From: a virus
DNA length: 64,000 nt
Strand: one strand, 5' to 3'
IMG/VR virus record: IMGVR_UViG_3300028029_000109
The notes under the pieces were generated by a model. That model was given only the letters and a program-made list of their open reading frames with translations. It searched no databases and was not told the origin of the DNA. This document shows positions 5,369-32,692 of the stretch, one piece after another (positions within the stretch are counted from its first letter, which is position 1; every line of letters starts with the position of its first letter). Position numbers and translations under genes: made by a program.

Positions 5369-5579
5369 CGTTTTATAATAGCAGAAAAAACTCGGAAGAA
5401 AATTGTTAAGAAAGACGCTAAGGAACAAGCTAAGGAACAAGCAATCAAGAATATTTAAAAGTCATTTAGAAAATGTTATAATTTATGATTAGAGATGCGA
5501 AGATAGCATTAACAAGCCCTAAATGGGCTTGTAATTTTGCAAGAGATATTCTAAGCAATATTTGAAGGATATTTAGAGA

Positions 5580-6179
5580 ATGTTAGAAGCGCTGATTAGA
5601 GATGAAAAAACTGCTCCGAAATCTTTGGAGTATAAGTTAATAAACAACCTTGCAACTTTAGAGGACCAGGAAGAAGCATTAACGAGGCCTATTTTGGCTT
5701 ATTACTTTGCAAAAGATATTCCAGGAGCTAACATTGAAGTTTGTCAGGAAGTAGCAGCAAAGGATCCTGAATGGGCTTATGAATTTGCAAGAGATGTTAA
5801 AGGAGCAAATATTGAAGTTTGTCAGGGAGGGGCAATCAAGGAGCCTGTATGGGCTTATTACTTTGCAAAAGATGTTACAGGAGCAGATGTTGAAGTCTGT
5901 CAGGAAGCAGTAATCAAGGATCCTGGATTTGCTTATTTATTTGCAAGAGATGTTAAAGGAGCAGACATTGAGGTTTGTCAGGAGCAAGCAATCAAAGATC
6001 CTGAATGGGCTTATAGATTTGCAAAAGATATTCAGGGAGCAGACATTGAAGCTTGCCAGGAGCAAGCAATCAAAGATCCTGTATGGGCTTATTACTTTGC
6101 AAGAGATATTCCAGGAGCAGATATTGAGGTCTGTCAGGAGCAAGCAGTCAAGGATCCTATATGGGCTTATAAATTTTAA
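5580..6179 (+). CDS. 26-aa repeat protein (array 1)
   Basis: Conserved head plus ~6 repeats; ends abruptly at YKF-TAA. Confidence 0.85.
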   Translation: MLEALIRDEKTAPKSLEYKLINNLATLEDQEEALTRPILAYYFAKDIPGANIEVCQEVAAKDPEWAYEFARDVKGANIEVCQGGAIKEPVWAYYFAKDVTGADVEVCQEAVIKDPGFAYLFARDVKGADIEVCQEQAIKDPEWAYRFAKDIQGADIEACQEQAIKDPVWAYYFARDIPGADIEVCQEQAVKDPIWAYKF

Positions 6180-6225
6180 ATATATAGAGGCATCAGGGGT
6201 AAGTCATTATAAGGATATTTAGAGA

Positions 6226-7002
6226 ATGTTAGAAGCACTGATTAGAGATGAAAAAACTGCTCCGAAATCTTTTGGGTATAGACTTATTAATGATTTAGTA
6301 AACTTAGAGGATCAGGAAGAGGCATTAACGAATCCTGAATGGGCTTATGAATTTGCAAAGGACATTATAGGGGCAGATATTGAAGTCTGTCAGTGTGGAG
6401 CAATCAAGGAGCCTGAATGGGCTTATAGATTTGCAAAAGATATTCAGGGAGCAGACATTGAAGCTTGTCAGGAAGGAGCAATTAAAGAGCCTTATTGGGC
6501 TTATGAATTTGCAAGAGACATTAAAGGAGCTAACATTGAAGTCTGTCAAGGTGGAGCAATCAAGGAGCTTTATTGGGCTTATGAATTTGCAAGAGATATT
6601 AAGGGAGCAGATATTGAAGTTTGTCTGGAAGCAGTAATCAAGAAGCCTGTATATGCTTATAAATTTGCAAGATATGTTACAGGAGCGAATATTGAAGTCT
6701 GTCAGGAAGCAGCAGTCAAGGAGCCCGGATGGGCTTATCATTTTGCAAAAGATATTCCAGGAGCAGATATTGAAGCTTGTCAGGAAGGAGTAATCAAGGA
6801 TCCTGAATGGGCTTATTATTTTGCAAGAGATATTACAGGAGCAAACATAGTAATCTGTCAGGGTGGAGCAGTAAAGGATCCTAAATGGGCTTATATATTT
6901 GCAAGAGATGTTAAAGGATCGGATATTGAAGTTTGTCAGGAAGCAGTCAAGAATTCTATATGGGCTTATAGATTTGCAAAAGATATTCTAAGCAATATTT
7001 GA
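6226..7002 (+). CDS. 26-aa repeat protein (array 1)
   Basis: Head plus ~8 repeats; C-cap DILSNI. Confidence 0.9.
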   Translation: MLEALIRDEKTAPKSFGYRLINDLVNLEDQEEALTNPEWAYEFAKDIIGADIEVCQCGAIKEPEWAYRFAKDIQGADIEACQEGAIKEPYWAYEFARDIKGANIEVCQGGAIKELYWAYEFARDIKGADIEVCLEAVIKKPVYAYKFARYVTGANIEVCQEAAVKEPGWAYHFAKDIPGADIEACQEGVIKDPEWAYYFARDITGANIVICQGGAVKDPKWAYIFARDVKGSDIEVCQEAVKNSIWAYRFAKDILSNI

Positions 7003-7016
7003 AGGATATTTAGAGA

Positions 7017-7268
7017 ATGTTAGAAGCACTGATTAGAGATGAGAAAACTGCTCCGAAATCTTTTGGTTATAAGTTAAGAAATAATCTTCTAACATTAGAG
7101 GATCAGGAAGAAGCATTAACAAGTCCTAAATGGGCTTATTATTTTGCAAGAAATGTTAAAGGGGCAGATATTAAAGTATGTCAGGAGCAAGCAGTCAAGA
7201 GTCCTAGATTGGCTTATAGATTTGCAAAAGATATTCCAGGAGCAGATGTTAAAAGGGAAACATGTTAG
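7017..7268 (+). CDS. 26-aa repeat protein, short (array 1)
   Basis: Head plus ~2 repeats; stop overlaps the next ATG. Confidence 0.85.
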   Translation: MLEALIRDEKTAPKSFGYKLRNNLLTLEDQEEALTSPKWAYYFARNVKGADIKVCQEQAVKSPRLAYRFAKDIPGADVKRETC

Positions 7269-8353
7269 AAGCACTGATTAGAGATGCGAAAACAGCTCCG
7301 AAATCTTTTGGGTATAAGTTAAGAAATAATCTTCTAACATTAGAGGATCAGGAAGAAGCATTAACAAATCCTAAATGGGCTTATTACTTTGCAAAAGATG
7401 TTCCAGGAGCAGACATTGAAGCCTGTCAGGAAGAAGCAATCAAGGATCCTAAATGGGCTTATTGTTTTGCAAGAGATATTTCGGGAGCTAATATTAAAGT
7501 TTGTCAGGAAGCAGCAATTAAGGATCCTGTATGGGCTTATGAATTTGCAAAAGATGTTAAAGGAGCGAGTATTGAAGTCTGTCAGGAAGGAGCAGTAAAG
7601 AGTCCTGAATGGGCTTATAATTTTGCAAAAGATGTTATAGGTGCAGATATTGAATTCTGTCAGGAAGTAGCAATCAAGGATCCTATATGGGTTTATCAAT
7701 TTGCAAAAGATGTTACAGGGGCGAATATTGAAGTCTGTCAGGAAGGAGTAATCAAGGATCCTGTATGGGCTTATAAATTTGCAAGATATATTCCAGGAGC
7801 AGACATTGAAGCCTGTCAGGAAGCAGTAATCAAGGATCCTGTATGGGCTTATAAATTTGCAAAAGATGTTACAGGAGCGAACATTGAAGTCTGTCAGGAA
7901 CAAGCAGTAAAGGAGCCTATATGGGCCTATAAATTTGCAAAAGATATTACAGAAGCGAACATTGAAGCCTGTCAGTGTGGAGCAATCAAGGAGCCTTATT
8001 TAGCTTATTATTTTGCAAAAGATATTAAGGGAGCAGATATTGAAGTTTGTCAGGAAGCAGCAATTAAGGATCCTGAATGGGCTTATAGATTTGCAAAGGA
8101 CGTTAAAGGAGCAGATATTGAAGTTTGTCAGGAGCAAGCAATTAAAGAGCCTGAATGGGCTTATAATTTTGCAAGAAATGTTAAAGGAGCAAGTATTGAA
8201 ATCTGTCAGGATGGAGTAATCAAGGATCCTGGATGGGCTTATTATTTTGCAAAATATGTTAAGGGAGCAGATATTGAAGTCTGTCAGGGTGGAGCAATCA
8301 AGGATTCTTATTGGGCTTATAAATTTGCAAGAGATGTTATACATAATACTTGA
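7262..8353 (+). CDS. 26-aa repeat protein (array 1)
   Basis: Head plus ~12 repeats. Confidence 0.9.
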   Translation: MLEALIRDAKTAPKSFGYKLRNNLLTLEDQEEALTNPKWAYYFAKDVPGADIEACQEEAIKDPKWAYCFARDISGANIKVCQEAAIKDPVWAYEFAKDVKGASIEVCQEGAVKSPEWAYNFAKDVIGADIEFCQEVAIKDPIWVYQFAKDVTGANIEVCQEGVIKDPVWAYKFARYIPGADIEACQEAVIKDPVWAYKFAKDVTGANIEVCQEQAVKEPIWAYKFAKDITEANIEACQCGAIKEPYLAYYFAKDIKGADIEVCQEAAIKDPEWAYRFAKDVKGADIEVCQEQAIKEPEWAYNFARNVKGASIEICQDGVIKDPGWAYYFAKYVKGADIEVCQGGAIKDSYWAYKFARDVIHNT

Positions 8354-8367
8354 AGGATATTTAGAGA

Positions 8368-9225
8368 ATGTTAGAATTTTTGATTAGAGATGCAAAAACA
8401 GCTCCGAAATCTTTTGGGTATAAGCTAAAAAATAACCTCTTGACATTAGAGGATCAGGAGGAAGCATTAACGAAGCCTAAATGGGCTTATGAATTTGCAA
8501 GATATGTTAAAGGAGCAGATATTGAAGTCTGTCAAGGTGGAGCAGTAAAGGATTCTGTATGGGCTTATTATTTTGCAAAAGATATTGCAGGAGCAGACAT
8601 TGAACTCTGTCAGGAAGCAGCAATCAAGGATCCTGAATGGTCTTATAAATTTGCAAACTATATTCCAGGAGCAGATATTGAAGTCTGTCAGGGTGGAGCA
8701 ATAAAGGAGCCTAAATGGGCTTATTATTTTGCAAGAAATGTTAAAGGAGCAGACATTGAATTATGTCAAGAAGCAGCAATCAAGGAGCCTGAATGGGCTT
8801 ATAGATTTGCAAGAGATGTTACAGGAGCAGATATTGAAGTCTGTCAGGAAGTAGTAATCAATGAGCCCATGTGGGCTTATTATTTTGCAAAACATATTCC
8901 AGGAGCAGATATTGAAGTCTGTCAGGGTGGAGCAATCAAGGATCCTGTATGGGCTTATAGATTTGCAAAGGATATTCCGGGTGCAGACATTGAAATCTGT
9001 CAGGAAGCAACAATTAAAGAGCCTAAATGGTCTTATTGTTTTGCAAAATATGTTCCAGGCGCAGACATTGAGGTCTGTCAGGAGCAAGCAATCAAGGAGC
9101 CTGAATGGGCTCATGAATTTGCAAGAGATGTTATAGGAGCAGATGTTGAAGTCTGTCAGGAACAAGCAGTAAAGGAGCCTATATGGGCTTATAAATTTGC
9201 AAGATATGTTATACGTAATATTTGA
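8368..9225 (+). CDS. 26-aa repeat protein (array 1)
   Basis: Head plus ~9 repeats. Confidence 0.9.
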   Translation: MLEFLIRDAKTAPKSFGYKLKNNLLTLEDQEEALTKPKWAYEFARYVKGADIEVCQGGAVKDSVWAYYFAKDIAGADIELCQEAAIKDPEWSYKFANYIPGADIEVCQGGAIKEPKWAYYFARNVKGADIELCQEAAIKEPEWAYRFARDVTGADIEVCQEVVINEPMWAYYFAKHIPGADIEVCQGGAIKDPVWAYRFAKDIPGADIEICQEATIKEPKWSYCFAKYVPGADIEVCQEQAIKEPEWAHEFARDVIGADVEVCQEQAVKEPIWAYKFARYVIRNI

Positions 9226-9239
9226 AGGATATTTAGAGA

Positions 9240-9569
9240 ATGTTAGAAGCACTGATTAGAGATGAGAAAACTGCTCCGAAATCTTTTGGTTATAAGTTAA
9301 GAAATAATCTTCTAACATTAGAGGATCAGGAAGAAGCATTAACAAGTCCTAAATGGGCTTATTATTTTGCAAGATATATTACAGGAGCGAACATTGAAGT
9401 CTGTCAGAAAGCAGCAGTTAAGGATCCTTATTGGGCTTATAGATTTGCAAAATATATTCCAGGAGCAGATATTGAGGTCTGTCAGGAGCAAGCAGTCAAG
9501 AGTCCTAGATTGGCTTATAGATTTGCAAAAGATATTCCAGGAGCAGATGTTAAAAGGGAAACATGTTAG
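9240..9569 (+). CDS. 26-aa repeat protein, short (array 1)
   Basis: Head and tail identical to 7017..7268, with one extra repeat. Confidence 0.85.
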   Translation: MLEALIRDEKTAPKSFGYKLRNNLLTLEDQEEALTSPKWAYYFARYITGANIEVCQKAAVKDPYWAYRFAKYIPGADIEVCQEQAVKSPRLAYRFAKDIPGADVKRETC

Positions 9570-10516
9570 AAGAACTGATTAGAGATGCGAAAACTGCTCC
9601 GAAATCTTTTGGTTATAAGCTGAAAAATAATCTTCTAACTTTAGAGGATCAGGAAGAAGCATTAACAAGTCCTAAATGGGCTTATAAATTTGCAAGATAT
9701 GTTCCAGGAGCTAACATTGAAGTTTGTCAGGAAGTAGCAGTTAATGAGCCTTATTTGGCTTATTACTTTGCAAAGGATGTTACAGGGGCAGATATTGAAG
9801 TCTGTCAGGAAGGAGTAATCAAGGATCCTGTATGGGCTTATGAATTTGCAAAAGATGTTAAAGGAGCGAGTATTGAAGTCTGTCAGGAAGGAGCAGTAAA
9901 GAGTCCTGAATGGGCTTATAATTTTGCAAAAGATGTTACAGGAGCAGATATTGAATTCTGTCAGGAAGTAGCAATCAAGGATCCTATATGGGTTTATTAC
10001 TTTGCAAGAGACGTTATAGGTGCAGATATTGAATTCTGTCAGGAAGGAGCAATCAAGGATCCTAGATTGGCTTATAGATTTGCAAGAGATATTGTAGGGG
10101 CAGATATTGAAGTCTGTCAGGAAGGAGCAATCAAGGATCCTGAACGGGCTTATAGATTTGCAAGATATATTCCAGGGGCGAATATTGAAGTTTGTCAGTG
10201 TGGAGCAATTAAGGATCCTGAATGGGCTTATTATTTTGCAAAATATGTTAAAGGAGCAAATATTGAATTATGTCAGGAAGCAGTAGTTAAGGATCCTTAT
10301 TGGGTTTATTGTTTTGCAAGAGATATTACAGGAGCTAACATTGAAGTTTGTCAGGAAGTAGCAATCAAGGATCCTGAATGGGCTTATTATTTTGCAAAAA
10401 ATGTTCCAGGAGCGGATATTGAAGTCTGTCAGGAAGGAGCAATAAAGGATCCTAAATGGGCTTATAGATTTGCAAGAGATATTGTAGGGGCAGATATTGA
10501 AAGGGCAACATGTTAG
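9563..10516 (+). CDS. 26-aa repeat protein (array 1)
   Basis: Head plus ~10-11 repeats. Confidence 0.9.
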   Translation: MLEELIRDAKTAPKSFGYKLKNNLLTLEDQEEALTSPKWAYKFARYVPGANIEVCQEVAVNEPYLAYYFAKDVTGADIEVCQEGVIKDPVWAYEFAKDVKGASIEVCQEGAVKSPEWAYNFAKDVTGADIEFCQEVAIKDPIWVYYFARDVIGADIEFCQEGAIKDPRLAYRFARDIVGADIEVCQEGAIKDPERAYRFARYIPGANIEVCQCGAIKDPEWAYYFAKYVKGANIELCQEAVVKDPYWVYCFARDITGANIEVCQEVAIKDPEWAYYFAKNVPGADIEVCQEGAIKDPKWAYRFARDIVGADIERATC

Positions 10517-11460
10517 AATTTTTGATTAGAGATGCGAAAACTGCTCCGAAATCTTTTGGGTATAAGATAAAAAATAATCTTCTAACATTAGAGGATCAAG
10601 AAGAAGCATTAACGAATCCTGTATGGGCTTATTATTTTGCAAGATATGTTAAGGGAGCAGATATTGAAGTTTGTCAGGAAGTGGCAATCAAGGATCCTAA
10701 ATGGGCTTGTAGATTTGCAAAAGATATTACAGGAGCAGATATTGAAGTTTGTCAGGAAGCAATCAAGGATCCTGAATGGGCTTATAAATTTGCAAAAGAT
10801 GTTACAGGAGCAGATATTGAAGTCTGTCAAGGTGGAGCAGTAAAGGATCCTGAATGGGCTTATAGATTTGCAAAGGATATTCCGGGTGCAGATATTGAAG
10901 TCTGTCAGGAAGCAACAATTAAAGAGCCTGTATGGGCTTATGAGTTTGCAAGAGATGTTAAAGGAGCGAACATTGAAGTTTGTCAAGAAGCAGTAGTCAA
11001 GGAGCCTGTATGGTCTTATTATTTTGCAAACTATATTTCAGGAGCAGATATTGAAGTTTGTCAGGAAGCAGCAATCAAGGATTCTGAATCGGCTTATAAA
11101 TTTGCAAGAGACGTTATAGGAGCAGATGTTGAAGTCTGTCAGGGTGGAGCAGTAAAGGATCCTAGATGGGCTTATTATTTTGCAAAACATGTTAAAGGAG
11201 CAGACATTGAAGTCTGTCAGGAAGCAACAATTAAAGAGCCTATGTGGGCTTATGAATTTGCAAGAAATGTTACAGGAGCGAATATTAAAGTCTGTCAGGA
11301 ACAAGCAGTAAAGGATCCTAGATGGGCTTATGAATTTGCAAGATATGTTAAAGGAGCTAACATTGAAGTCTGTCAAAAAGCAGCAATCAAGGAGCCTGAA
11401 TGGGCTTATAGATTTGAAAAAGATATTCCAGGAGCAGATGTTGAAAGGGTAACATGTTAG
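10510..11460 (+). CDS. 26-aa repeat protein (array 1)
   Basis: Head plus ~10-11 repeats, one of them 25 aa. Confidence 0.9.
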   Translation: MLEFLIRDAKTAPKSFGYKIKNNLLTLEDQEEALTNPVWAYYFARYVKGADIEVCQEVAIKDPKWACRFAKDITGADIEVCQEAIKDPEWAYKFAKDVTGADIEVCQGGAVKDPEWAYRFAKDIPGADIEVCQEATIKEPVWAYEFARDVKGANIEVCQEAVVKEPVWSYYFANYISGADIEVCQEAAIKDSESAYKFARDVIGADVEVCQGGAVKDPRWAYYFAKHVKGADIEVCQEATIKEPMWAYEFARNVTGANIKVCQEQAVKDPRWAYEFARYVKGANIEVCQKAAIKEPEWAYRFEKDIPGADVERVTC

Positions 11461-12005
11461 AAGCACTGATTAGAGATGCGAAAACAGCTCCGAAATCTTT
11501 TGGGTATAAGCTGAAAAATAATCTTCTAACCTTAGAGAATCAGGAAGAGGCATTAACAAGTCCTAAATGGGCTTATAAATTTGCAAGATATGTTAAAGGA
11601 GCAGACATTGAAGCCTGTCAGGAAGTGGCAATCAAGAATCCTTATTGGGCTTATTGTTTTGCAAGATATGTTCCAGGAGCGGATATTGAAGTCTGTCAGG
11701 GTGGAGCAATCAAGGATCCTGAATGGGCTTATTATTTTGCAAAATATGTTAAAGGAGCGAGTGTTGAAGTTTGTCAGGAAGGAGCAATTAAGAATCCTGA
11801 ATGGGCTTATAAATTTGCAAGAGATGTTACAAAATCAGACATAGTAATCTGTCAGGGTGGAGCAATAAAGGAGCCTAAATGGGCTTATTATTTTGCAAGA
11901 AATGTTAAAGGAGCAGACATAATAGCCTGTCAGGGTGGAGCAATCAAGGAACCTGAATGGGCTTATAGATTTGCAAGAGATATTAGAGGAATCATAGGTA
12001 AGTAA
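11454..12005 (+). CDS. 26-aa repeat protein (array 1)
   Basis: Head plus ~5 repeats. Confidence 0.9.
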   Translation: MLEALIRDAKTAPKSFGYKLKNNLLTLENQEEALTSPKWAYKFARYVKGADIEACQEVAIKNPYWAYCFARYVPGADIEVCQGGAIKDPEWAYYFAKYVKGASVEVCQEGAIKNPEWAYKFARDVTKSDIVICQGGAIKEPKWAYYFARNVKGADIIACQGGAIKEPEWAYRFARDIRGIIGK

Positions 12006-12027
12006 TAATACTTGAAGGATATTTAGC

Positions 12028-12513
12028 ATGTTAGAATTTTTGATTAGAGATGCGAAAACAGCTCCGAAATCTTTTGGATATAAGTTAAGAAATAATCTTT
12101 TAACTTTAGAGGATCAGGAAGAAGCATTAACAAATCCTAAATGGGCTTATTGTTTTGCAAAAGATGTTAAAGGAGCTAACATTAAAGTCTGTCAGGAAGC
12201 AGCAATAAAGAATCCTGAATTGGCTTATAGATTTGCAAAAGATGTTAAAGGAGCAGATATTGAAGTTTGTCAGGAGCAAGCAATTAAAGAGCCTGAATGG
12301 GCTTATAATTTTGCAAGACATGTTAAAGGAGCTAACATTGAAGTCTGTCAGGAAGCAGCAATAAAGAATCCTGAATTGGCTTATAGATTTGCAAAATATG
12401 TTAAGGGAGCAGATATTGAAGTCTGCCAGGAAGCAGCAGTAAGGGATCCTTATTGGGCTTATGCTTTTGCAAGAGATATTACAGGAGCAGATGCTGAAAG
12501 GGCAACATGCTAG
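12028..12513 (+). CDS. 26-aa repeat protein (array 1)
   Basis: Head plus ~4-5 repeats, including near-identical internal duplicates (KNPELAYRFAK). Confidence 0.9.
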   Translation: MLEFLIRDAKTAPKSFGYKLRNNLLTLEDQEEALTNPKWAYCFAKDVKGANIKVCQEAAIKNPELAYRFAKDVKGADIEVCQEQAIKEPEWAYNFARHVKGANIEVCQEAAIKNPELAYRFAKYVKGADIEVCQEAAVRDPYWAYAFARDITGADAERATC

Positions 12514-13463
12514 AAGCACTGATTAGAGATGCGAAAACTGCTCCGAAATCTTTGGGGTATAGACTCAATAATGGTTTAGTAACCTTAGAAGATCAGGAAG
12601 AAGCATTAACAAGTCCTAAATGGGCTTATTGTTTTGCAAGATATATTCCAGGAGCTAACATTGAAGCCTGTCAGGGAGGAGCAGTCAAGGAGTCTGTATG
12701 GGCTTATAAATTTGCAAGATATATTCCAGGAGCAGATATTGAAGTTTGTCAGGAAGCAGTAATCAAGGATCCTTATTGGGCTTATTATTTTGCAAAACAT
12801 ATTCCAGGAGCGAATATTGAAGCCTGTCAGGAAGGAGCAATCAAGGATTCTGAATGGGCTTATGAATTTGCAAGAGGTGTTAAGGGAGCAGATATTGAAG
12901 TTTGTCAGGAAGTAGCAGTTAAGGATCCTATATGGGCTTATTATTTTGCAAGAAATGTTAAAGGAGCAGACATTGAATTATGTCAAGGTGAAGCAGTCAA
13001 GGAGCCTAAATGGTCTTATAAATTTGCAAGAGATATTTCGGGAGCTAATATTAAAGTTTGTCAGGAAGGAGTAATCAAGGATCCTGAATGGGCTTATTAT
13101 TTTGCAAGAGATATTTCGGGAGCTAATATTAAAGTTTGTCAGGAAGCAGCAATCAAGGATCCTGTATGGGCTTATGAATTTGCAGAATATATTATAGGAG
13201 CTAATATTGAAGTCTGTCAGGCAGGAGCAATCAAGAAGCCTGTATGGGCTTATAATTTTGCAAAACATGTTAAAGGAGCTAACATTGAATTTTGCCAAGA
13301 AGGAGCAGTAAAGAGTTCTGAATGGGCTTATTACTTTGCAAGATATATTCCAGGAGCAGATATCGAAGTTTGTCAGGAAGTGGCAATCAAGGATCCTAAA
13401 TGGGCTTGTAGATTTGCAAGAGATATTCTAGGAGATATTCCAGGAGCAATAAATGATAGATGA
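12507..13463 (+). CDS. 26-aa repeat protein (array 1, last)
   Basis: Head plus ~10-11 repeats. Confidence 0.9.
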   Translation: MLEALIRDAKTAPKSLGYRLNNGLVTLEDQEEALTSPKWAYCFARYIPGANIEACQGGAVKESVWAYKFARYIPGADIEVCQEAVIKDPYWAYYFAKHIPGANIEACQEGAIKDSEWAYEFARGVKGADIEVCQEVAVKDPIWAYYFARNVKGADIELCQGEAVKEPKWSYKFARDISGANIKVCQEGVIKDPEWAYYFARDISGANIKVCQEAAIKDPVWAYEFAEYIIGANIEVCQAGAIKKPVWAYNFAKHVKGANIEFCQEGAVKSSEWAYYFARYIPGADIEVCQEVAIKDPKWACRFARDILGDIPGAINDR

Positions 13464-13818: not shown

Positions 13819-14112
13819 ATGACGTTAGAGATGTTAGGAATGAATGTTTTAGTGAAGATGGAAGATGCTGGAGAAAAGGTTTCTAAGGGTGGTATAATTA
13901 CCCCTGGAACAACGAGACAGTCTTCAATTCAAAAGGCTGAGGTTGTTGCTGTTGGCCCTGGTGAGATCCAGAACGGCAATTTTGTACCGGTTAAGGACAT
14001 TAAGGCTGGAGATACCGTTGTAATTGACAGGGACTTTACTAAAGCTATAGATAATGATGGTGAGGAACAATATATTGTTTCTTATAGAGATGTTCTGGGA
14101 AAATCTGAGTAA
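13819..14112 (+). CDS. groES: co-chaperonin GroES
   Basis: 'VLVK...E..SKGGII.P', 'AEVVAVGPG', 'IKAGDTVV', 'YRDVLG'; 97 aa. Confidence 0.9.
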   Translation: MTLEMLGMNVLVKMEDAGEKVSKGGIITPGTTRQSSIQKAEVVAVGPGEIQNGNFVPVKDIKAGDTVVIDRDFTKAIDNDGEEQYIVSYRDVLGKSE

Positions 14113-26050: not shown

Positions 26051-26100
26051 ATAAGATAGGGATTTCTTTACATGAATAGAAAGGTGTGATAGAAGATCGT

Positions 26101-27831
26101 ATGAATCAATCTCTCCCCCTAATGCTACAGTCAATTTTTGACAACGACCTATATAAGTTTACGATGCAACAGGCTGTGCTTGAATTGTATCCTGATGCAA
26201 TTGTACAGTACAGGTTTAAAAATAGAGGTTCTCATAAGTTCGGTGAGAGATTTCTTGAGTTGTTCAAATCAGGCCTTGAGAATGTGAAAAATCTTAAAGG
26301 TACTGAGGAAGAGTATAAAAAATTCGAAACTCTCTCTTTTATCAAACCCTGGTATGCGGCTTACGTTAAAAGCTTTAGGTTCGACCCATCTCAAATAACG
26401 TTCGACATGAAAGATGGCGGTCTATCTCTACAGATTGATGGCCCTTGGCACTCTACTATTTTATGGGAAGTTCCACTGATGGCTCTCATTTCCGAATGCT
26501 ACTTCCAAATTGAAAAAAAAGATGGTCTTTGGGATATGAAAAATCAAGCATCCAAGCTTGAGCTTAAAGGTAATAGGCTAAGTACTGGTCATTGCAGGTA
26601 CGCTGATTTTGGTACTCGTAGACGTAGGTGTTATGAGGTACAAGACTTCATTGTTAATAAGATGAAGGATCATTACTGGTTCTCTGGAACATCCAATGTT
26701 CATCTAGCATTCAAACATGGTGTACGTCCTATTGGAACTATGGCTCATGAATGGGTTCAAGCTACAGCTGCCCTTGAGAGCATGAATCACCCCAATCGTT
26801 TTATGCTTGAAAACTGGGTGAAAGTATACGGCTCTGATCTTGGCATTGCCCTGCCAGACACGTATGGTGCCGAATCCTTCTTCAAGGATTTCAACAAGAC
26901 GCTGGCATCAATTTATGATGGAGTACGTCATGACTCTGGTGATCCATTCATATTCGCAGACAAGGTTGTACAACATTACAAAGAGATTGGAATTGACCAT
27001 ACCTCCAAAACTATTGTTTTCTCGGACGGCCTTAATGCAGACCTGGCAGCAGAGATTCAGACATATTGTGATAATATTGAAATAAAGTGCTCGTTCGGAA
27101 TTGGAACATCTTTTACGAATGATTTTGACACGCCAGCTCTAAACATGGTAATCAAGTTATGGTCTGTCAATGGAATGTGCGTGGTAAAGCTTTCGGATAA
27201 CCCTGGGAAGGCTAATGGCGACGAAGCAATGGTTAAAATCATGAGACACATTCACATGCCGGAGGCATGTATAATGGAAGAAGTAGATGCGAAAACAGCT
27301 CCAAAATCTTTTGGTTATAAGCTGAGAAATAATCTTCTAACATTAGAGGATCAGAAAGAAGCATTAACGGATCCTTATTGGGCTTATATATTTGCAAAAC
27401 ATATTCCAGGAGCAGACATTGAAGCCTGTCAAAAAGCAGTAATCAAGGATCCTGAATGGGCTTATGAGTTTGCAAAAGATATTCCAGGAGCTAATATTGA
27501 AGCCTGTCAAGGTGGAGCAGTAAAAAATCCTTATTGGGCTTATATATTTGCAAAAGATGTTCCAGGAGCTAATATTGAATTTTGCCAGGAAGCAGCGGTT
27601 AATGAGTCAGAATGGGCTTATCATTTTGCAAGAGATGTTAAGGGAGCAGATATTGAAGTTTGTCAGGAAGGAGCAGTAAAGGATCCTGAATGGGCTTATA
27701 AATTTGCAAGAGATGTTAAGAGAGCAGATATTGAAGTCTGTCAGGGTGGAGTAATCAAGGATCCTGAATGGGCTTATCAATTTGCAAAAGATATTCCAGA
27801 GCAGACATTGAAGCTTGTCAGGAAGCAATAA
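26101..27831 (+). CDS. pncB: nicotinate phosphoribosyltransferase fused in frame to a 26-aa repeat protein
   Basis: 'DNDLYKFTMQQA', 'DFGTRRR', 'GTSNV', 'GTMAHEW', 'GVRHDSGDP', 'IVFSDGL', 'FGIGT', 'KLSDNPGK'; then without a stop 'DAKTAPKSFGYKL...' plus ~5 repeats. Confidence 0.92.
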   Translation: MNQSLPLMLQSIFDNDLYKFTMQQAVLELYPDAIVQYRFKNRGSHKFGERFLELFKSGLENVKNLKGTEEEYKKFETLSFIKPWYAAYVKSFRFDPSQITFDMKDGGLSLQIDGPWHSTILWEVPLMALISECYFQIEKKDGLWDMKNQASKLELKGNRLSTGHCRYADFGTRRRRCYEVQDFIVNKMKDHYWFSGTSNVHLAFKHGVRPIGTMAHEWVQATAALESMNHPNRFMLENWVKVYGSDLGIALPDTYGAESFFKDFNKTLASIYDGVRHDSGDPFIFADKVVQHYKEIGIDHTSKTIVFSDGLNADLAAEIQTYCDNIEIKCSFGIGTSFTNDFDTPALNMVIKLWSVNGMCVVKLSDNPGKANGDEAMVKIMRHIHMPEACIMEEVDAKTAPKSFGYKLRNNLLTLEDQKEALTDPYWAYIFAKHIPGADIEACQKAVIKDPEWAYEFAKDIPGANIEACQGGAVKNPYWAYIFAKDVPGANIEFCQEAAVNESEWAYHFARDVKGADIEVCQEGAVKDPEWAYKFARDVKRADIEVCQGGVIKDPEWAYQFAKDIPEQTLKLVRKQ

Positions 27832-27937: not shown

Positions 27938-28171
27938 ATGTTAGAATTTATGATACAGCACGCTAAAACAACTCCGAAATCTTTTGGGTATAGACTCAAT
28001 AATGGTTTAGTAACCTTAGAGAATCAGGAAGAAGCATTAACAAGTCCTAAATGGGCTTATGAATTTGCAAGAAATGTTACAGGAGCAGATATTGAAGTCT
28101 GTCAGGGTGGAGCAATCAAGGATCCTGGATGGGCTTATAATTTTGCAAGATATGTTAAAGGAGCGAATTAA
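27938..28171 (+). CDS. 26-aa repeat protein, short (array 2)
   Basis: Head variant MLEFMIQHAKTTPKS; truncated by a 13-nt tandem duplication. Confidence 0.7.
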   Translation: MLEFMIQHAKTTPKSFGYRLNNGLVTLENQEEALTSPKWAYEFARNVTGADIEVCQGGAIKDPGWAYNFARYVKGAN

Positions 28172-28234
28172 AGGAGCGAATATTTAAGCTTGTAAGAAAG
28201 CATATCAAGGAACAGAATTCGAAAGATTTGATGA

Positions 28235-28780
28235 ATGTCAGAATTTATGATACAGCACGCTAAAACATCTCCGAAATCTTTTTGGTATAAGCTGAAAAAT
28301 GGTTTAGTAACCTTAGAGGATCAGGAAGAAGCATTAACGGATCCTTATTGGGCTTATTATTTTGCAAAACATATTCCAGGATCAAGTATTGAAGTCTGTC
28401 AGGAAGGAGCAATAAAGAGTCCTGAATGGGCTTATTATTTTGCAAGATATATTCCAGGAGCTAACATTGAAGTCTGTCAGGAAGCAGTAGTAAAGAGTTA
28501 TTATTGGTCTTATGAATTTGCAAAGGATGTTACAGGAGCTAACATTGAAGCCTGTCAGGGTGGAGCAATTAAGGAGCCTAAATGGGCTTATTATTTTGCA
28601 AGAAATGTTACAGGAGCAGACATTGAAGCCTGTCAGGGTGGAGCAGTAAAGGAGCCTGGATGGGCTTATAATTTTGCAAGATATGTTAAAGGGGCGAACA
28701 TTGAAGTCTGTCAGGAAGCAATTAAGGATCCTGAATGGGCTTATCAATTTGCAAAAGATATTCCAGAGGCTAACACTTAA
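28235..28780 (+). CDS. 26-aa repeat protein (array 2)
   Basis: Head plus ~5 repeats. Confidence 0.88.
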   Translation: MSEFMIQHAKTSPKSFWYKLKNGLVTLEDQEEALTDPYWAYYFAKHIPGSSIEVCQEGAIKSPEWAYYFARYIPGANIEVCQEAVVKSYYWSYEFAKDVTGANIEACQGGAIKEPKWAYYFARNVTGADIEACQGGAVKEPGWAYNFARYVKGANIEVCQEAIKDPEWAYQFAKDIPEANT

Positions 28781-28827: not shown

Positions 28828-29376
28828 ATGTTAGAATTTTTAATTAGAGATGCGAAAACAGCTCCGAAATCTTTTGGGTATAGACTCAATAATGGTTTAG
28901 TAACCTTAGAGGATCAGGAAGAAGCATTAACAAATCCTAAATGGGCTTATGAATTTGCAAAAGATATTACAGGAGCAGATATTGAAGCCTGTCAGAAAGT
29001 AGCAGTAAAGAGTCCCAAATGGGCTTATTACTTTGCAAAGGACATTATAGGGGCAGATATTGAAGCCTGTCAGAAAGTAGCAGTAAAGAGTCCTGGATGG
29101 GCTTATTATTTTGCAAAAGATGTTACAGGAGCAGATATTGAGGTCTGTCAGGAGCAAGCAGTCAAGGATCCTGTATGGGCTTATAATTTTGCAAGATATG
29201 TTAAAGGAGCAGATATTGAATTCTGTCAGAAAGCAGCAGTTAAGGATCCTGAATGGGCTTATTTATTTGCAAAATATGTTAAAGGAGCAAGTATTGAAAT
29301 CTGTCAGGGTGGAGTAATCAAGGATCCTGAATTGGCTTATCAATTTGCAAAAGATATTCCAGAGGCTAACATTTAA
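28828..29376 (+). CDS. 26-aa repeat protein (array 2)
   Basis: Head plus ~5 repeats. Confidence 0.9.
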   Translation: MLEFLIRDAKTAPKSFGYRLNNGLVTLEDQEEALTNPKWAYEFAKDITGADIEACQKVAVKSPKWAYYFAKDIIGADIEACQKVAVKSPGWAYYFAKDVTGADIEVCQEQAVKDPVWAYNFARYVKGADIEFCQKAAVKDPEWAYLFAKYVKGASIEICQGGVIKDPELAYQFAKDIPEANI

Positions 29377-29423: not shown

Positions 29424-29831
29424 ATGTTAGAATTTTTAATTAGAGATGCGAAAACTGCTCCGAAATCTTTTGGTTATAGACTCAATAATAGTTTAGTAAC
29501 CTTAGAGGATCAGGAAGAAGCATTAACAAATCCTAAATGGGCTTATTACTTTGCAAAAGATGTTCCAGGAGCAGATATTGAAGCCTGTCAGGGTGGAGCA
29601 GTTAAGGAGTCTTATTGGGCTTATTGTTTTGCAAGATATATTCCAGGAGCGAATATTGAAGCCTGTCAGGAAGGAGCAATCAAGGATCCTTATTGGGCTT
29701 ATATATTTGCAAGATATGTTAAAAGAGCAGATATTAAAGTTTGTCAGGGAGGGGCAATCAAGAATTCTTATTGGGCTTATCATTTTGCAAAAAATGTTAC
29801 AGGAGCAGGTATTGAAGTCTGTAAAGGTTAA
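29424..29831 (+). CDS. 26-aa repeat protein (array 2), premature stop
   Basis: Head plus ~3-4 repeats; repeat homology continues past the TAA. Confidence 0.8.
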   Translation: MLEFLIRDAKTAPKSFGYRLNNSLVTLEDQEEALTNPKWAYYFAKDVPGADIEACQGGAVKESYWAYCFARYIPGANIEACQEGAIKDPYWAYIFARYVKRADIKVCQGGAIKNSYWAYHFAKNVTGAGIEVCKG

Positions 29832-29941: not shown

Positions 29942-30231
29942 ATGTTAGAATTTTTTATTAGAGATGCAGAAAATGCTCCGAAATCTTTTGGGTATAAGAT
30001 AAAAATAATCTTGTAACTTTAGAGGATCAGGAAGAAGCATTAACGAATCCTGAATGGGCTTATAGATTTGCAAGATATGTTACAGGAGCAGATATTGAAG
30101 TCTGTCAGGGTGGAGCAGTCAAGGATCCTTATTGGGCTTATGCTTTTGCAATATATATTCCAGGAGCGAATATTGAAGCTTGTAAGAAAGCATATCATGG
30201 AACAGAATACGAAAGGTTTAGTGAGTGTTAG
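29942..30231 (+). pseudogene. frameshifted 26-aa repeat gene (array 2)
   Basis: Head has 'ataaaaataat' versus 'ataaaaaataat' in the intact copy at 10510: a 1-nt deletion in an A run near 30000. Confidence 0.75.
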
Positions 30232-31037
30232 AATTTTTGATTAGAGATGCGAAAACAGCTCCGAAATCTTTTGGGTATAGACTCAATAATGGTTTAGTAA
30301 CCTTAGAGAATCAGGAAGAAGCATTAACAAGCTCTAAATGGGCTTATGAATTTGCAAAAGACATTATAGGGGCAGATATTGAAGCCTGTCAGAAAGTAGC
30401 AGTAAAGAGTCCTGGATGGGCTTATAGATTTGCAAGAAATGTTAAAGGAGCAAATATTGAAGTCTGTCAGAAAGTAGCAGTAAAGAGTCCTGGATGGGCT
30501 TGTAGATTTGCAGGAGATATTCCAGGAGCAGACATTGAAGCTTGTCAGGAAGGAGCAATCAAGGAGCCTGTATGGGCTTATAGATTTGCAAGAGGTGTTA
30601 AGGGAGCAAACATTGAAGTCTGTCAGGAGCAAGCAATTAAAGAGCCTTATTGGGCTTATTATTTTGCAAGATATGTTAAGGGAGCAGATGTTGAAGTTTG
30701 TCAGGAAGCAGTAATCAAGGATCCTTATTGGGCTTATGAATTTGCAAAAGATGTTAAGGGAGCAAACATAGTAATCTGTCAGGGTGGAGCAGTTAATGAG
30801 CCTGTATGGGCTTATTATTTTGCAAGAGATATTACAGGAGCAGACATTGAAGTTTGTCAGGAAGTAGTAAAGGGTTCTGAATGGTCCCATATATTTGCAA
30901 GAGACGTTAAAGGGGCGAGCATTGAAGTCTGTCAGGGTGGAGCAGTAAAGGATCCTAATTGGGCTTATCATTTTGCAAAAGATATTGCAGGAGCAGATGT
31001 TGAAGTTTGTCAGGAAGTAGCGGATAGCGAATGTTAG
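30225..31037 (+). CDS. 26-aa repeat protein (array 2)
   Basis: GTG start; head plus ~9 repeats. Confidence 0.9.
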   Translation: MLEFLIRDAKTAPKSFGYRLNNGLVTLENQEEALTSSKWAYEFAKDIIGADIEACQKVAVKSPGWAYRFARNVKGANIEVCQKVAVKSPGWACRFAGDIPGADIEACQEGAIKEPVWAYRFARGVKGANIEVCQEQAIKEPYWAYYFARYVKGADVEVCQEAVIKDPYWAYEFAKDVKGANIVICQGGAVNEPVWAYYFARDITGADIEVCQEVVKGSEWSHIFARDVKGASIEVCQGGAVKDPNWAYHFAKDIAGADVEVCQEVADSEC

Positions 31038-31645
31038 AATTTTTGATTAGAGATGCAGAAACTGCTCCGAAATCTTTTGGTTATAAGCTAAAAAATAATC
31101 TTGTAACTTTAGAGAATCAGGAAGAAGCATTAACAAGTCCTAAATGGGCTTATAATTTTGCAAAAGATGTTAAAGGAGCAGACATTGAAGCTTGCCAGGA
31201 AGGAGCAATCAAGGAGCCTGTATGGGCTTATTACTTTGCAAGAGATATTCCAGGAGCGAATATTGAAGTTTGTCAGGAAGCAGCAATCAAGGATCCTATA
31301 TGGGCTTATCATTTTGCAAAACATGTTAAAGGAGCAGACATTGAGGTTTGTCAGGAAGGAGCAATCAAGGAGCCTTATTGGGCTTATATATTTGCAAGAG
31401 ACGTTACAGGAGCTAACATTGAGGTTTGTCAGGAGGTAGCAATAAAGAGTTCTGTATGGGCTTATCATTTTGCAAAGGATGTTACAGGAGCTAACATTGA
31501 AGCCTGTCAGGAAGCAGCAATCAAGAATCCTAAATGGGCTTATAAATTTGCAAGAGATGTTACAGGAGCAGACATTGAAGCCTGTCAGGAAGCAGCAATC
31601 AAGGAGCCTAGATGGGCTTATAAATTTGCAGAAGATATTGCATGA
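31031..31645 (+). CDS. 26-aa repeat protein (array 2)
   Basis: Head plus ~6 repeats. Confidence 0.9.
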   Translation: MLEFLIRDAETAPKSFGYKLKNNLVTLENQEEALTSPKWAYNFAKDVKGADIEACQEGAIKEPVWAYYFARDIPGANIEVCQEAAIKDPIWAYHFAKHVKGADIEVCQEGAIKEPYWAYIFARDVTGANIEVCQEVAIKSSVWAYHFAKDVTGANIEACQEAAIKNPKWAYKFARDVTGADIEACQEAAIKEPRWAYKFAEDIA

Positions 31646-31697: not shown

Positions 31698-32324
31698 ATG
31701 TTAGAATTTTTAATTAGAGATGCGAAAACAGCTCCGAAATCTTTTGGTTATAAGCTAAAAAATAATCTTGTAACTTTAGAGGATCAGGAAGAAGCATTAA
31801 CAAGTCCTAAATGGGCTTATAAATTTGCAAGATATGTTCCAGGAGCAGATATTGAAGTCTGTCAGGGTGGAGCAATCAAGGATCCTGGATGGGCTTATAA
31901 TTTTGCAAGATATATTACAGGTGCAGACATTGAGGTTTGTCAGGAAGGAGCAATCAAGGATTCTTATTGGGCTTATAGATTTGCAAGAGATGTTAAAGGA
32001 GCAAATATTGAAGTTTGTCAGGAAGCAGCGGTTAATAAGCCTGTATGGGCTTATAATTTTGCAAAACATATTCCAGGAGCAAGTATTGAAGTCTGTCAGG
32101 GTGGAGCAATCAAAGATCCTGAGTTGGCTTATAATTTTGCAAAAGATATTAAGGGAGCAGACATTGAAGTTTGTCAGGAACAAGCAATCAAAGATCCTGG
32201 ATGGGCTTATAATTTTGCAAGATATGTTAAAGGGGCGAATATTGAAGTTTGTCAGGGTGGAACAGTCAAGAGTTCTTATTGGGCTTATCAATTTGCAAAA
32301 GATATTCCGGGATCTAACATTTAA
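31698..32324 (+). CDS. 26-aa repeat protein (array 2)
   Basis: Head plus ~6 repeats. Confidence 0.9.
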   Translation: MLEFLIRDAKTAPKSFGYKLKNNLVTLEDQEEALTSPKWAYKFARYVPGADIEVCQGGAIKDPGWAYNFARYITGADIEVCQEGAIKDSYWAYRFARDVKGANIEVCQEAAVNKPVWAYNFAKHIPGASIEVCQGGAIKDPELAYNFAKDIKGADIEVCQEQAIKDPGWAYNFARYVKGANIEVCQGGTVKSSYWAYQFAKDIPGSNI

Positions 32325-32371: not shown

Positions 32372-32692
32372 GTGTTAGAATTTCTGATACAGCACGCTAA
32401 AACATATCCGAAACCTTTTAGGTATAGACTTATTAATGATCTAGTAAATTTAGAGGATCAGGAAGAGGCATTAACGAATCCTGAATGGGCTTATAGATTT
32501 GCAAGAGATGTTAAAGGAGCAAATATTGAAGTTTGTCAGGAAGTAGTAATTAATAGTTCTAGATTGGCACGCTGCGCTGCTAGCTGCGCTGCTAAATGTG
32601 AGCGCAAATTTGATGAACAAAAGTACCAAGTCCTTACGCGAAAGGCTGAGCTTAGTAGTTCAGGGCGACCAGTGGATAGATGGTATCCTTGA
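32372..32692 (+). CDS. chimeric repeat protein: head plus 1 repeat fused to unrelated sequence
   Basis: Repeat homology stops at 'SSRLA' (~32568), then 'RCAASCAAKCERKFDEQ...'. Confidence 0.6.
   Translation: MLEFLIQHAKTYPKPFRYRLINDLVNLEDQEEALTNPEWAYRFARDVKGANIEVCQEVVINSSRLARCAASCAAKCERKFDEQKYQVLTRKAELSSSGRPVDRWYP

What the first reader, a model, noticed from the sequence alone, without database searches (positions are those of the whole stretch)
5473..13463. Phage-encoded library of ~23 paralogous 26-aa-repeat proteins in three tandem arrays
Seen: 11 ORFs here, 10 units at 27285-32692 and at least 2 at 61990-64000. All share a constant ~35-aa head (MLE[AF]LIRDAKTAPKSFGY.L.N.L.TLEDQEEALT) followed by 1 to ~14 copies of one 78-nt repeat. 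From ORF lengths I estimate ~150 repeat units, about a quarter of the window. Inference: an alpha-helical solenoid family with a fixed adaptor/targeting head and variable binding modules. The logic resembles F-box/ankyrin expansions in eukaryotic viruses, but here it is in a bacteriophage. Possible roles are anti-defence inhibitors, decoys or host-range adaptors. The repeat loosely recalls DUF4116-type repeats (from memory, unverified). I do not recognise the head.
Basis: partly seen in the sequence, partly recalled or inferred. Interest (0 to 1): 0.9.

Follow-up and report, generated by a model that had tools for sequence, protein, structure and literature searches.

The report
Huge phage's hypervariable helical-repeat gene family
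A very large phage from a deep-sea vent epibiont community carries dozens of tandem genes for one unannotated 26-residue helical-repeat protein, each with the same short head and with surface positions that vary fast, which looks like a built-in library of protein binders not described before in phages.

Summary
The window holds 23 family genes in three arrays (11 + 10 + 2) plus one decayed remnant. They carry 157-158 repeats of 78 nt, and the genes cover 22.6% of the window.

AlphaFold2 gives a confident (pLDDT 92.8) solenoid of helix-hairpin repeats. The 35-residue head is a separate module and is conserved in distant relatives.

The family has no significant match in Pfam, NCBIfam, PADLOC or the PDB. 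It shares only its fold class with DUF4116, because both HMM and profile-profile tests fail.

The carrier is a tailed phage. A 266-kb contig with portal and terminase lies at the same depth as the window in two independent runs, and it ends in the same family.

Seven more contigs of the same metagenome raise the count to 59 heads and 410 repeats. Whether all belong to this one phage is not shown.

Scaffold codons are under purifying selection, while positions 2, 6, 12, 22 and 26 show excess amino-acid change. Repeat units are shuffled between paralogs.

My best reading is a diversifying intracellular binder library. Its targets are unknown, and gene order in the arrays is not verified by long reads. 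This scan found the family on no other DNA.

The parts
5454..5482 (+). sigma-70-like promoter candidate (TTTAAA, 17 nt, TG-TATAAT) upstream of array 1
   Evidence: This is a consensus match only.
5473..5579 (+). decayed mini-copy: a head fragment plus one repeat, with in-frame stops
5580..6179 (+). family gene, 199 aa, head + 6 repeats
6226..7002 (+). family gene, 258 aa, 9 repeats
7017..7268 (+). family gene, 83 aa, 2 repeats; its stop overlaps the next start (ATGTTAG)
7262..8353 (+). family gene, 363 aa, 13 repeats
8368..9225 (+). family gene, 285 aa, 10 repeats
9240..9569 (+). family gene, 109 aa, 3 repeats; shares exact blocks of 135 and 90 nt with the gene at 7017
9563..10516 (+). family gene, 317 aa, 11 repeats
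10510..11460 (+). family gene, 316 aa, 11 repeats
11454..12005 (+). family gene, 183 aa, 6 repeats
12028..12513 (+). family gene, 161 aa, 5 repeats
12507..13463 (+). family gene, 318 aa, 11 repeats; last gene of array 1
26086..27831 (+). Nicotinate phosphoribosyltransferase (about 396 aa) running in frame into a head that lacks its first 7 residues, followed by 6 repeats. An internal ATG lies at 27274. A frameshift near 27800 leaves two more repeats and the C-cap out of frame.
27938..28171 (+). family gene, 77 aa, 2 repeats, cut short by a 13-nt tandem duplication at 28155-28181
28235..28780 (+). family gene, 181 aa, 6 repeats
28828..29376 (+). family gene, 182 aa, 6 repeats; this is the protein that was folded
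29424..29831 (+). family gene, 135 aa, 4 repeats, ended by a stop inside a repeat; one more repeat and a decayed C-cap follow
29942..30224 (+). frameshifted pseudogene: the head is split at about 30001, then 2 repeats and an intact C-cap follow
30225..31037 (+). family gene, 270 aa, 9 repeats, GTG start
31031..31645 (+). family gene, 204 aa, 7 repeats
31698..32324 (+). family gene, 208 aa, 7 repeats
32372..32692 (+). family gene, 106 aa, variant head, 1 repeat, then an unrelated tail; last unit of array 2
61990..62703 (-). family gene, 237 aa, 8 repeats
62751..63998 (-). family gene, at least 415 aa, 15 repeats; its start codon lies at the edge of the window

Best explanation
The arrays are a lineage-specific expansion of a phage-borne alpha-solenoid family.

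Anatomy. Each gene encodes a conserved 35-residue N-terminal module (the head) and then 1 to 17 copies of a 26-residue helix-turn-helix unit. Some genes keep the remains of a C-terminal cap.

How it evolves. The scaffold residues (W3, Y5, F7, A8, G13, A14, C19, Q20, K25) are held constant. Five or six solvent-facing positions per unit (2, 6, 12, 22, 26 and partly 10) change fast. Units are moved between paralogs by recombination.

Proposed function. The proteins most likely act inside the infected cell as a repertoire of protein binders with different specificities and lengths. They would be made together with the phage's host-takeover and nucleotide-metabolism genes. Each would bind, and so block or redirect, a different target protein. 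Host defence or toxin effectors are the likeliest targets.

What is shown: the family and its size, the predicted fold, the phage carrier, the pattern of selection, and the mosaic structure.

What is inferred: that they bind proteins, and that they act inside the cell.

What is speculative: that the targets are defence proteins.
For: Fold. AF2 gives pLDDT 92.8 and pTM 0.82, with regular 10- and 8-residue helices.

Variable positions.
- Entropy peaks at positions 2, 6, 10, 12, 22 and 26, while F7, A8 and C19 never vary.
- On a tree of 288 unique units, position 2 has 149 nonsynonymous against 4 synonymous changes (p=5e-7). Position 22 gives p=1e-3, position 26 p=0.035 and position 6 p=0.05.
- Positions 13-15, 19, 20, 24 and 25 are under purifying selection, with p down to 1e-14.
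- Positions 2, 6 and 10 follow an i, i+4, i+8 spacing on helix A.

Shuffling. For 128 of 139 units the nearest unit lies in another gene. Exact blocks of up to 136 nt are shared at different offsets.

Scale. There are 59 heads and 410 units in one metagenome, and none is redundant with the window.

Phage carrier. Portal (phrog_16240, E 6e-52) and terminase (phrog_675, E 4e-46) lie on a 266-kb contig. That contig sits at depth 25.7-27, against 25.2 for the window flank, and both occur at low depth in a second run.

Use as an add-on module. In relatives the repeat is fused to NDK, ThyX, AAA_5, PcfJ-like, DUF1963 and DUF7666 domains, as expected for an interaction module.

Genomic setting. The neighbours are nucleotide-metabolism, chaperonin and tRNA genes, not virion genes. 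No signal peptide is evident in the head sequence.
Against: - No binding partner is known, and no expression data exist. No RNA run was listed.
- The AF2 model rests on an alignment of 12 paralogs only, and no solved structure resembles it.
- Several members are frameshifted or truncated, so part of the array may be decaying.
- The selection test uses a crude tree of 78-nt units and parsimony.
- Variable positions lie on both helices, so a single binding face is not shown. I had no access to model coordinates.
- That all 59 genes belong to one phage genome is shown only for the window and the 266-kb contig.
Confidence: 0.5

Rival explanations
1. The solenoids are scaffolds or tethers rather than inhibitors. 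They would hold phage metabolic enzymes (NAD and nucleotide synthesis) together or at a particular site, and the head would dock onto a common phage partner.
For: In-frame fusions to enzymes recur in different lineages:
- NAPRTase in the window.
- ThyX in L087, next to a GMP-reductase-like gene.
- Three different NDK fusions, and AAA_5 ATPase fusions.

The arrays also sit among nucleotide-metabolism genes.
Against: A scaffold for a handful of enzymes does not need about 59 paralogs, nor diversifying selection at surface positions. Fusions may also arise simply because array genes overlap or abut their neighbours. The window fusion itself carries a frameshift.
Confidence: 0.15
2. The expansion is mostly neutral or selfish. 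The 78-nt unit and the self-punctuating gene cassette would amplify by unequal crossing-over and slippage, and many copies would be pseudogenes on their way out.
For: - Frameshifts, a 13-nt duplication, premature stops and decayed C-caps occur in array 2.
- Synonymous sites in helix A are frozen (A4 is GCT in 128 of 129 units, A8 is GCA in 139 of 139). This points to recent common descent or homogenisation.
- Alternative frames of the repeat are also open.
Against: - There is strong purifying selection at scaffold codons in the annotated frame, with p down to 1e-14.
- The head is conserved at 42-63% identity in distant relatives from other environments.
- Most genes are intact, with conserved overlapping stop/start junctions.
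Confidence: 0.12
3. The number and order of genes are inflated or scrambled by short-read assembly of near-identical repeats.
For: - Exact blocks of up to 136 nt are shared between paralogs.
- Every related contig breaks inside an array.
- Logan contigs within the array are only 115-157 nt long, and one shows an alternative joint at 8027/8346.
Against: - Units average only 79% nt identity, so most 31-mers are unique.
- Exact-match unitigs have 0.9 to 2.7 times the flank depth, not 10 times or more.
- An independent vent run holds identical pieces of the array.
- The extra contigs are at most 88.5% identical to the window.
Confidence: 0.1
4. The proteins act on nucleic acids. They would be either DNA mimics that soak up DNA-binding defence enzymes, or sequence-reading solenoids with a residue code as in PPR, PUF or TALE proteins.
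For: - Two main variable positions per repeat on one helix recall repeat codes.
- Long members are acidic, with pI 4.4-5.2.
- Weak structural matches to PPR and PUF proteins, Z 4.3-6.5.
Against: - The net charge is only about -0.7 per repeat, far from known DNA mimics and of the wrong sign for nucleic-acid binding.
- Z scores under 8 for helical repeats are within the noise range that the tool states.
Confidence: 0.05

Closest known systems
DUF4116 (PF13475) repeat proteins, including the multigene families of giant viruses (Klosneuvirus, Hokovirus, Bodo saltans virus, Marseillevirus). Some fold-search rows from these viruses are named F-box, U-box or RING domain-containing proteins.
   Same: Both are solenoids of helix hairpins of about 25-26 residues. 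The best structural matches are DUF4116 models (TM 0.78, rmsd 2.5 over 178 residues; several more). A loose shared pattern exists ([YF]-A-x-D .. D-x-E-V). Both form large paralogous families in big DNA viruses. DUF4116 has no solved structure or known function either (PMC8078820).
   Different: Sequence relationship is not supported. Pfam scores are half the cut-off, 0 of 95 relatives match, and hhalign gives probability 0.4% against 99.8% for the control. The unit is 26 rather than 25 residues. The head has no Pfam match and is not an F-box. The carrier is a tailed phage, not a eukaryotic virus.
Ankyrin-repeat multigene families of poxviruses and giant viruses, built from an adaptor domain plus variable repeats (from general knowledge)
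   Same: They share a conserved short terminal module and a variable number of helical repeats. They are tandemly duplicated, lie in accessory genome regions, and are thought to bind host proteins.
   Different: The repeat is different (33-residue ankyrin). The adaptor sits at the C-terminus and has a known partner (SCF ubiquitin ligase), which bacteria lack. No homology was detected here.
Small head + repeat + C-cap proteins in unannotated metagenomic tandem arrays (for example L089, L115-L120, P0124-P0234)
   Same: These are true relatives. They have the same head motif (..D.k.vPKT.GYKL.n.L.TL.D.EEA..P), the same 26-residue unit, the same overlapping stop/start junctions, and the C-cap whose remains are seen in array 2.
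   Different: They have 2-8 repeats per gene, and only 3-5 genes are visible per short contig. They usually carry two cysteines per unit. The window's phage has longer genes (up to 17 repeats), has mostly lost the C-cap, and has about 59 copies.
T4 internal proteins (IPI-III): variable bodies behind a conserved N-terminal capsid-targeting leader, with IPI* acting as an injected anti-restriction protein (from general knowledge)
   Same: A short conserved N-terminal leader sits on otherwise variable, clustered phage genes, and a counter-defence role is known for one of them.
   Different: The T4 leader is about 10 residues and is cleaved by the prohead protease. There are only a few genes and they have no repeats. 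Nothing here shows packaging or cleavage.
Tandem arrays of helical-repeat immunity genes in bacterial polymorphic-toxin loci (from general knowledge)
   Same: These are tandem paralogous arrays of small helical-repeat binders that neutralise diverse toxins. A bacterial-context array of 9 paralogs of this same repeat exists next to tatA/tatC (L085), and one relative is fused to DUF1963.
   Different: No toxin gene was identified beside any array examined here. The link is an analogy only.

Membership tests
DUF4116 (PF13475) | Match to the Pfam HMM at or above the gathering score (24.9 bits) | tested here: not met
   Scores are 12.5 and 11.5 bits (E 0.11 and 0.22) for two window proteins and nothing for the two others. 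None of 95 diverse relatives match at E<=0.01.
DUF4116 (PF13475) | Profile-profile similarity to bona fide DUF4116 repeats | tested here: not met
   I built a DUF4116 profile from 73 repeat pairs taken from 11 of the 12 Bacillota loci that pass the Pfam cut-off. hhalign gives probability 0.1-0.4% and E 0.15-0.3. The positive control (window against relatives) gives 99.8% and E 1.5e-29.
DUF4116 (PF13475) | Solenoid of helix hairpins of about 25 residues | tested here: met
   Foldseek against AFDB clusters finds a DUF4116 protein at TM 0.78, rmsd 2.5, E 3.6e-7, plus six more DUF4116 rows. BFVD gives many DUF4116 rows.
HEAT / Armadillo / Sel1 / TPR / PPR repeats | Match to the family HMMs, and the characteristic repeat length (HEAT about 37-47, Sel1 36, TPR 34, PPR 35 residues) | tested here: not met
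   No such Pfam hits. The unit is 26 residues. Structural matches reach only Z<=6.5, within the noise range for helical repeats.
Diversity-generating retroelement targets | A nearby reverse transcriptase and template repeat | tested here: not met
   No RVT_1 match in the 266-kb contig and none among the window ORFs scanned. Variation is spread over many paralogs rather than one variable region. The rest of the genome was not searched.
Known anti-phage defence proteins (PADLOC) | Match to a PADLOC model | tested here: not met
   No match for four family members.
Tailed phage (Caudoviricetes) as the carrier | Portal and large terminase genes on the same genome | tested here: met
   phrog_16240 portal (E 6e-52) and phrog_675 / phrog_15 terminase (E 4e-46 / 1.5e-41) are adjacent at 131-136 kb of the 266-kb contig. 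That contig and the window have equal depth in runs X1 and X2, and the contig ends in a family gene.
Capsid-targeted internal proteins (T4 IP-like) | N-terminal leader cleaved by the prohead protease; protein present in virions | not testable with these tools
   This needs virion proteomics and N-terminal sequencing.

The most novel reading that the evidence does not exclude
The conserved head is a common handle and the repeat bodies are a shuffled, fast-evolving repertoire. The handle could be a packaging or ejection signal, or a docking site for a single phage or host machine such as a protease or chaperonin. The phage would then carry an innate 'antibody-like' library of about 60 binders. 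These would be delivered or coupled through one pathway to neutralise many host defence or toxin proteins. The library would renew itself by recombination between cassettes.
Probability: 0.15. Interest if true: 0.9.

Novelty: new variant of a known kind. Interest (0 to 1): 0.74.

Why it matters
Large paralogous families of repeat proteins are a hallmark of poxviruses and giant viruses, where they bind host proteins. I found no report of anything comparable in a bacteriophage.

Here a phage of roughly 0.4 Mb appears to spend about 32 kb on one family. The family has the marks of an arms-race repertoire: a frozen scaffold, fast-changing surface positions and cassette shuffling.

The repeat belongs to a broad family, with 1381 clusters at 50% identity. 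That family has no Pfam model, no solved structure and no known function, and by the Atlas look-up (a lead only) its nearest clusters are mostly viral. Defining one member's target would annotate a large piece of viral dark matter.

The fold is a compact, regular, natural 26-residue solenoid with defined variable positions. That also makes it of interest as a binder scaffold.

Tried and rejected
Database searches that found nothing useful:
- Pfam, NCBIfam, PADLOC and PHROGs scans of family members gave only sub-threshold, repeat-driven sums with no significant single stretch.
- PDB searches by sequence profile gave nothing better than E 0.08.
- PDB searches by fold gave Foldseek E>=9e-3 and VIA-align Z<=6.5, which are generic designed or natural solenoids.
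- tblastn of a 363-aa member against 50,697 phage records gave no match; the low-complexity filter may contribute.
- megablast of 9 kb of unique window DNA against phages gave no match.
- Literature searches for DUF4116, jumbo or huge phage multigene families, and vent epibiont phages found no description of this family.

Searches for relatives that were poorly chosen or failed:
- GroEL was a poor bait for relatives, since it hits about 60%-identical chaperonins everywhere.
- The alignment A3 was too divergent for the search for related loci.
- An L089 member found no IMG/VR relative.
- The genome-contig scan with a bacterial-context member found only two gut MAGs.

Hallmark genes:
- Pfam hallmark HMMs (Terminase_6N, sheath, HK97 capsid, Gp23, T4 portal, NCLDV capsid) were all negative on the 266-kb contig.
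- PHROG models then found the portal and terminase.

Ideas tested and rejected:
- The head as a degenerate repeat: hhalign shows no similarity.
- A DGR mechanism: no reverse transcriptase was found.
- DNA mimicry: the charge is too weak.

Tests that could not decide:
- Tetranucleotide composition could not assign the extra contigs to the phage, because the controls correlate equally well.
- No RNA run was listed.
- The exact-sequence look-up of the window's own fusion protein found no record.


Full report
**1.

ORF listing shows 11 co-directional genes at 5580-13463. It shows 9 open genes plus one frameshifted copy at 27274-32692, and 2 genes on the minus strand at 61990-63998.

A head HMM built from the window finds 23 heads, plus a weak remnant at 5473-5520.

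Each gene has the 35-residue head followed by 1-15 in-register units of 26 residues. I counted 158 units by pattern and 157 by HMM.

Tandem Repeats Finder reports period-78 arrays with scores up to 4194. The units amount to 12.3 kb (19% of the window) and the genes to 14.4 kb (22.6%).

**2. Anatomy of the unit**

The consensus unit is P-x-W-A-Y-x-F-A-[RK]-x-[VI]-x-G-A-[DN]-I-E-x-C-Q-x-x-A-[IV]-K-x.
- F7, A8 and C19 never vary.
- Entropy peaks at positions 2, 6, 10, 12, 22 and 26.

AlphaFold2 on the 182-aa member at 28828-29376, with 11 paralogs as the alignment, gives pLDDT 92.8 and pTM 0.82.
- The model has a strictly alternating pattern of a 10-residue helix (unit positions 1-10) and an 8-residue helix (positions 16-23).
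- The head forms three short helices. Confidence there is lower, at 55-88 over the first 30 residues.
- Positions 2, 6 and 10 fall on one face of helix A, and positions 18 and 22 on one face of helix B.
- I had no access to model coordinates, so I cannot say whether all variable positions form a single surface.

**3. Selection and shuffling**

Pairwise counts give pN/pS above 1 at positions 2, 6, 12, 22 and 26, and far below 1 at positions 13-17, 19, 20 and 25.

I then ran a SLAC-like count on a tree of 288 unique units, taken from the window and from sister contigs.
- Position 2 has 149 nonsynonymous against 4 synonymous changes (p=5e-7).
- There is also an excess at positions 22 (p=1e-3), 23, 11, 26 (p=0.035), 6 (p=0.05) and 12 (p=0.06).
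- Purifying selection is significant at positions 13, 14, 15, 19, 20, 24 and 25, with p down to 1e-14.

The annotated frame is therefore a real coding frame under constraint. The method is crude (short units, parsimony, recombination), so the site list is indicative only.

Synonymous sites are strikingly uneven.
- Ala4 is GCT in 128 of 129 units and Ala8 is GCA in 139 of 139, whereas Ala14 uses three codons.
- This is not codon bias. The helix-A segment is frozen at the nucleotide level.
- That is consistent with recent descent or homogenisation. It may also supply the homology for in-register recombination.

Units are mosaic.
- Mean pairwise identity is 79% and nearest-neighbour identity is 91%.
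- The nearest neighbour lies in another gene for 128 of 139 units.
- Exact blocks of up to 136 nt are shared between paralogs at different offsets.

**4. Decay and ancestry inside array 2**

- An ancestral C-terminal cap (G-A-N-I-E-A-C-K-K-A-Y-Q-G-T-E-F-E-R-F-D-E-C-stop) survives in frame only in the pseudogene at 29942-30224.
- The cap also survives out of frame behind the NAPRTase fusion.
- At least five genes of arrays 2 and 3 end at a stop codon directly after G-[AS]-N-[IT] (28235, 28828, 31698, 61990, 62751). A decayed cap follows this stop at the junctions translated (28760-28840, 29780-30240, 32300-32400).
- A 13-nt duplication truncates the gene at 27938.
- The same C-cap is intact in distant relatives. 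So the window's family has largely lost it.

**5. The carrier is a very large tailed phage**

Non-family genes in the window:
- GroES, GroEL, a GMP-reductase-like enzyme, ThyA and NAPRTase.
- Two RNase T-like exonucleases, a Ro60-like protein and an SNF2-type helicase.
- An ADP-ribosylglycohydrolase, an amidase, HNH and LAGLIDADG endonucleases, and three tRNAs.

A search of IMG/VR with a family member finds the end of a 266,228-bp viral contig. CheckV rates it 62% complete. Its last gene has the same head.

The probable source run is an epibiont metagenome.
- It holds that contig without differences at depth 25.7-27, against 25.2 for the window's flank.
- An independent hydrothermal-vent run holds both at low depth.
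- The two pieces share no DNA.
- I conclude they are parts of one genome of at least 339 kb.

PHROG scans of large ORFs of the 266-kb contig find an adjacent portal (E 6e-52) and large terminase (E 4e-46). They also find a DnaB-like helicase and other replication genes.

No cultured relative was found.

**6. The family is larger than the window shows**

The same JGI metagenome holds seven further contigs with the same head. Three of them (the 266-kb, 44.6-kb and 20.3-kb contigs) carry family genes at a contig end, and the four short ones consist almost wholly of array.
- The HMM total is 59 heads and 410 units, about 32 kb.
- None is a duplicate of the window. The best identity is 88.5% over 150 nt or more.
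- The longest gene has 17 repeats.

The contigs sum to about 416 kb, close to the 429 kb implied by the CheckV figure.

Co-membership of the smaller contigs is not proven, because composition could not discriminate.

Within the 266-kb core contig the family occurs only at the very end. So the arrays are concentrated in the remaining accessory part of the genome.

**7. Relatives elsewhere**

A profile search of 1.84 billion cluster representatives finds 1381 at E<=1e-3 and 416 at E<=1e-10.

About 16 clusters are small proteins of 65-150 aa with a recognisable head, 2-4 repeats and the C-cap.
- On L089 at least four such genes lie in tandem with overlapping stops and starts.
- Three other metagenomes show the same arrangement.
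- L087 pairs a GMP-reductase-like gene with a ThyX-repeat fusion and a head gene. This echoes the window's neighbourhood.

More distant members lack the head.
- They occur as a 9-gene tandem array beside tatA/tatC and an outer-membrane efflux gene (L085).
- They occur in gut Bacillota MAGs.
- They occur fused to NDK, AAA_5, PcfJ-like, DUF1963 and DUF7666 domains.

By language-model features the nearest ESM Atlas clusters are mostly viral (Uroviricota). This is a lead only.

**8. Comparison with what is known**

Nothing significant was found in Pfam, NCBIfam, PADLOC or the PDB. PHROG matches are weak and go to families of unknown function.

By structure, the best matches are uncharacterised gut-MAG proteins and DUF4116 proteins (TM 0.75-0.81). 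In the viral library the best matches are an uncultured phage protein and giant-virus DUF4116 proteins.

The DUF4116 lead fails as a membership claim.
- HMM scores are half the cut-off.
- 0 of 95 relatives match.
- hhalign against a DUF4116 profile built here gives probability 0.4%, against 99.8% for the control.

DUF4116 itself has no solved structure and is modelled as an alpha-solenoid (PMC8078820).

The head shows no profile similarity to the repeat and no database match. It is a separate conserved module of unknown role.

**9. Mechanism**

I commit to a diversifying library of intracellular protein binders (confidence about 0.5).

Grounds:
- the solenoid fold;
- a frozen scaffold with positively selected exposed positions;
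- variable length and cassette shuffling;
- location among early-type accessory genes;
- use of the same repeat as an add-on module on enzymes elsewhere.

That the targets are host defence or toxin proteins is a guess by analogy.

Rivals:
- enzyme scaffolding, suggested by the fusions;
- neutral amplification with decay;
- assembly inflation;
- action on nucleic acids, which the modest acidity (about -0.7 charge per unit) does not favour.

**10. Limits**

- There are no long reads, no RNA and no identified host.
- Gene order inside the arrays is unverified.
- The AF2 alignment consisted of paralogs only.

**11. Verdict**

This is a real feature, larger than reported, unannotated and unusual for a phage. 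Its function is unproven.

Noticed in passing
window 13819-14112 and 32982-34625: Arrays 1 and 2 each end directly upstream of a chaperonin gene on the same strand: GroES after array 1 and GroEL after array 2. A strong terminator follows GroES at 14131-14152. The phage may supply its own chaperonin to fold its many solenoids, or the arrays may simply have inserted at these sites.
   Followed up: partly
window 26086-27831: A full-length NAPRTase runs in frame into a head that lacks its first 7 residues. An internal ATG at 27274 could also start the repeat protein on its own. A frameshift near 27800 puts the last two repeats and the C-cap out of frame.
   Followed up: partly
window, every repeat unit (for example 7367-8353): Synonymous sites of the helix-A codons are frozen (Ala4 GCT, Tyr5 TAT, Phe7 TTT, Ala8 GCA in nearly all units). 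Helix-B codons vary freely at synonymous sites. This may reflect nucleotide-level homology that guides in-register recombination.
   Followed up: partly
window 28155-28181: A perfect 13-nt tandem duplication frameshifts and truncates the family gene at 27938-28171.
   Followed up: yes
L085 4304-14157: Nine tandem paralogs of the same 26-residue repeat, with their own head and tail, lie next to tatA, tatC, an outer-membrane efflux protein and a MacB-type ABC transporter. This is a bacterial-looking context, so large tandem expansions of this repeat are not confined to phages.
   Followed up: partly
window 9190 and 12078 in run X2; window 7544, 9587 and 8027/8346 in run X1: Some contigs match array sequence and then run on into unrelated DNA, and one contig shows an alternative joint. 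These are further paralogs at other array borders or structural variants between populations.
   Followed up: partly
L121 8966-10711 and L127 13351-15813 (266-kb contig): Two ORFs match large-terminase PHROGs. The first also matches a DnaC-like loader family and sits among replication genes, so it may be a different ATPase.
   Followed up: no
tRNA-Pro and tRNA-Ile lie 2 kb further on.
   Followed up: no
window 37834-38874 (-), 47778-48767 (-), 53822-54694 (-): Three further genes: a free-standing LAGLIDADG / Hom_end endonuclease on the opposite strand beside the SNF2-type helicase, an ADP-ribosylglycohydrolase, and a weak match to tRNA nucleotidyltransferase.
   Followed up: no
P0118, P0120, P0029 (relatives): Giant proteins of up to 2253 aa are built from a variant of the unit (P-x-Y-A-Y-x-Y-A-K-D-V-L-K-G-P-F-P-L-G-E-P-A-I-A-K-D). 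PcfJ-like domains were detected in 3 of 95 relatives scanned; P0029 carries the motif I took for PcfJ, but no PcfJ hit was listed for it.
   Followed up: no
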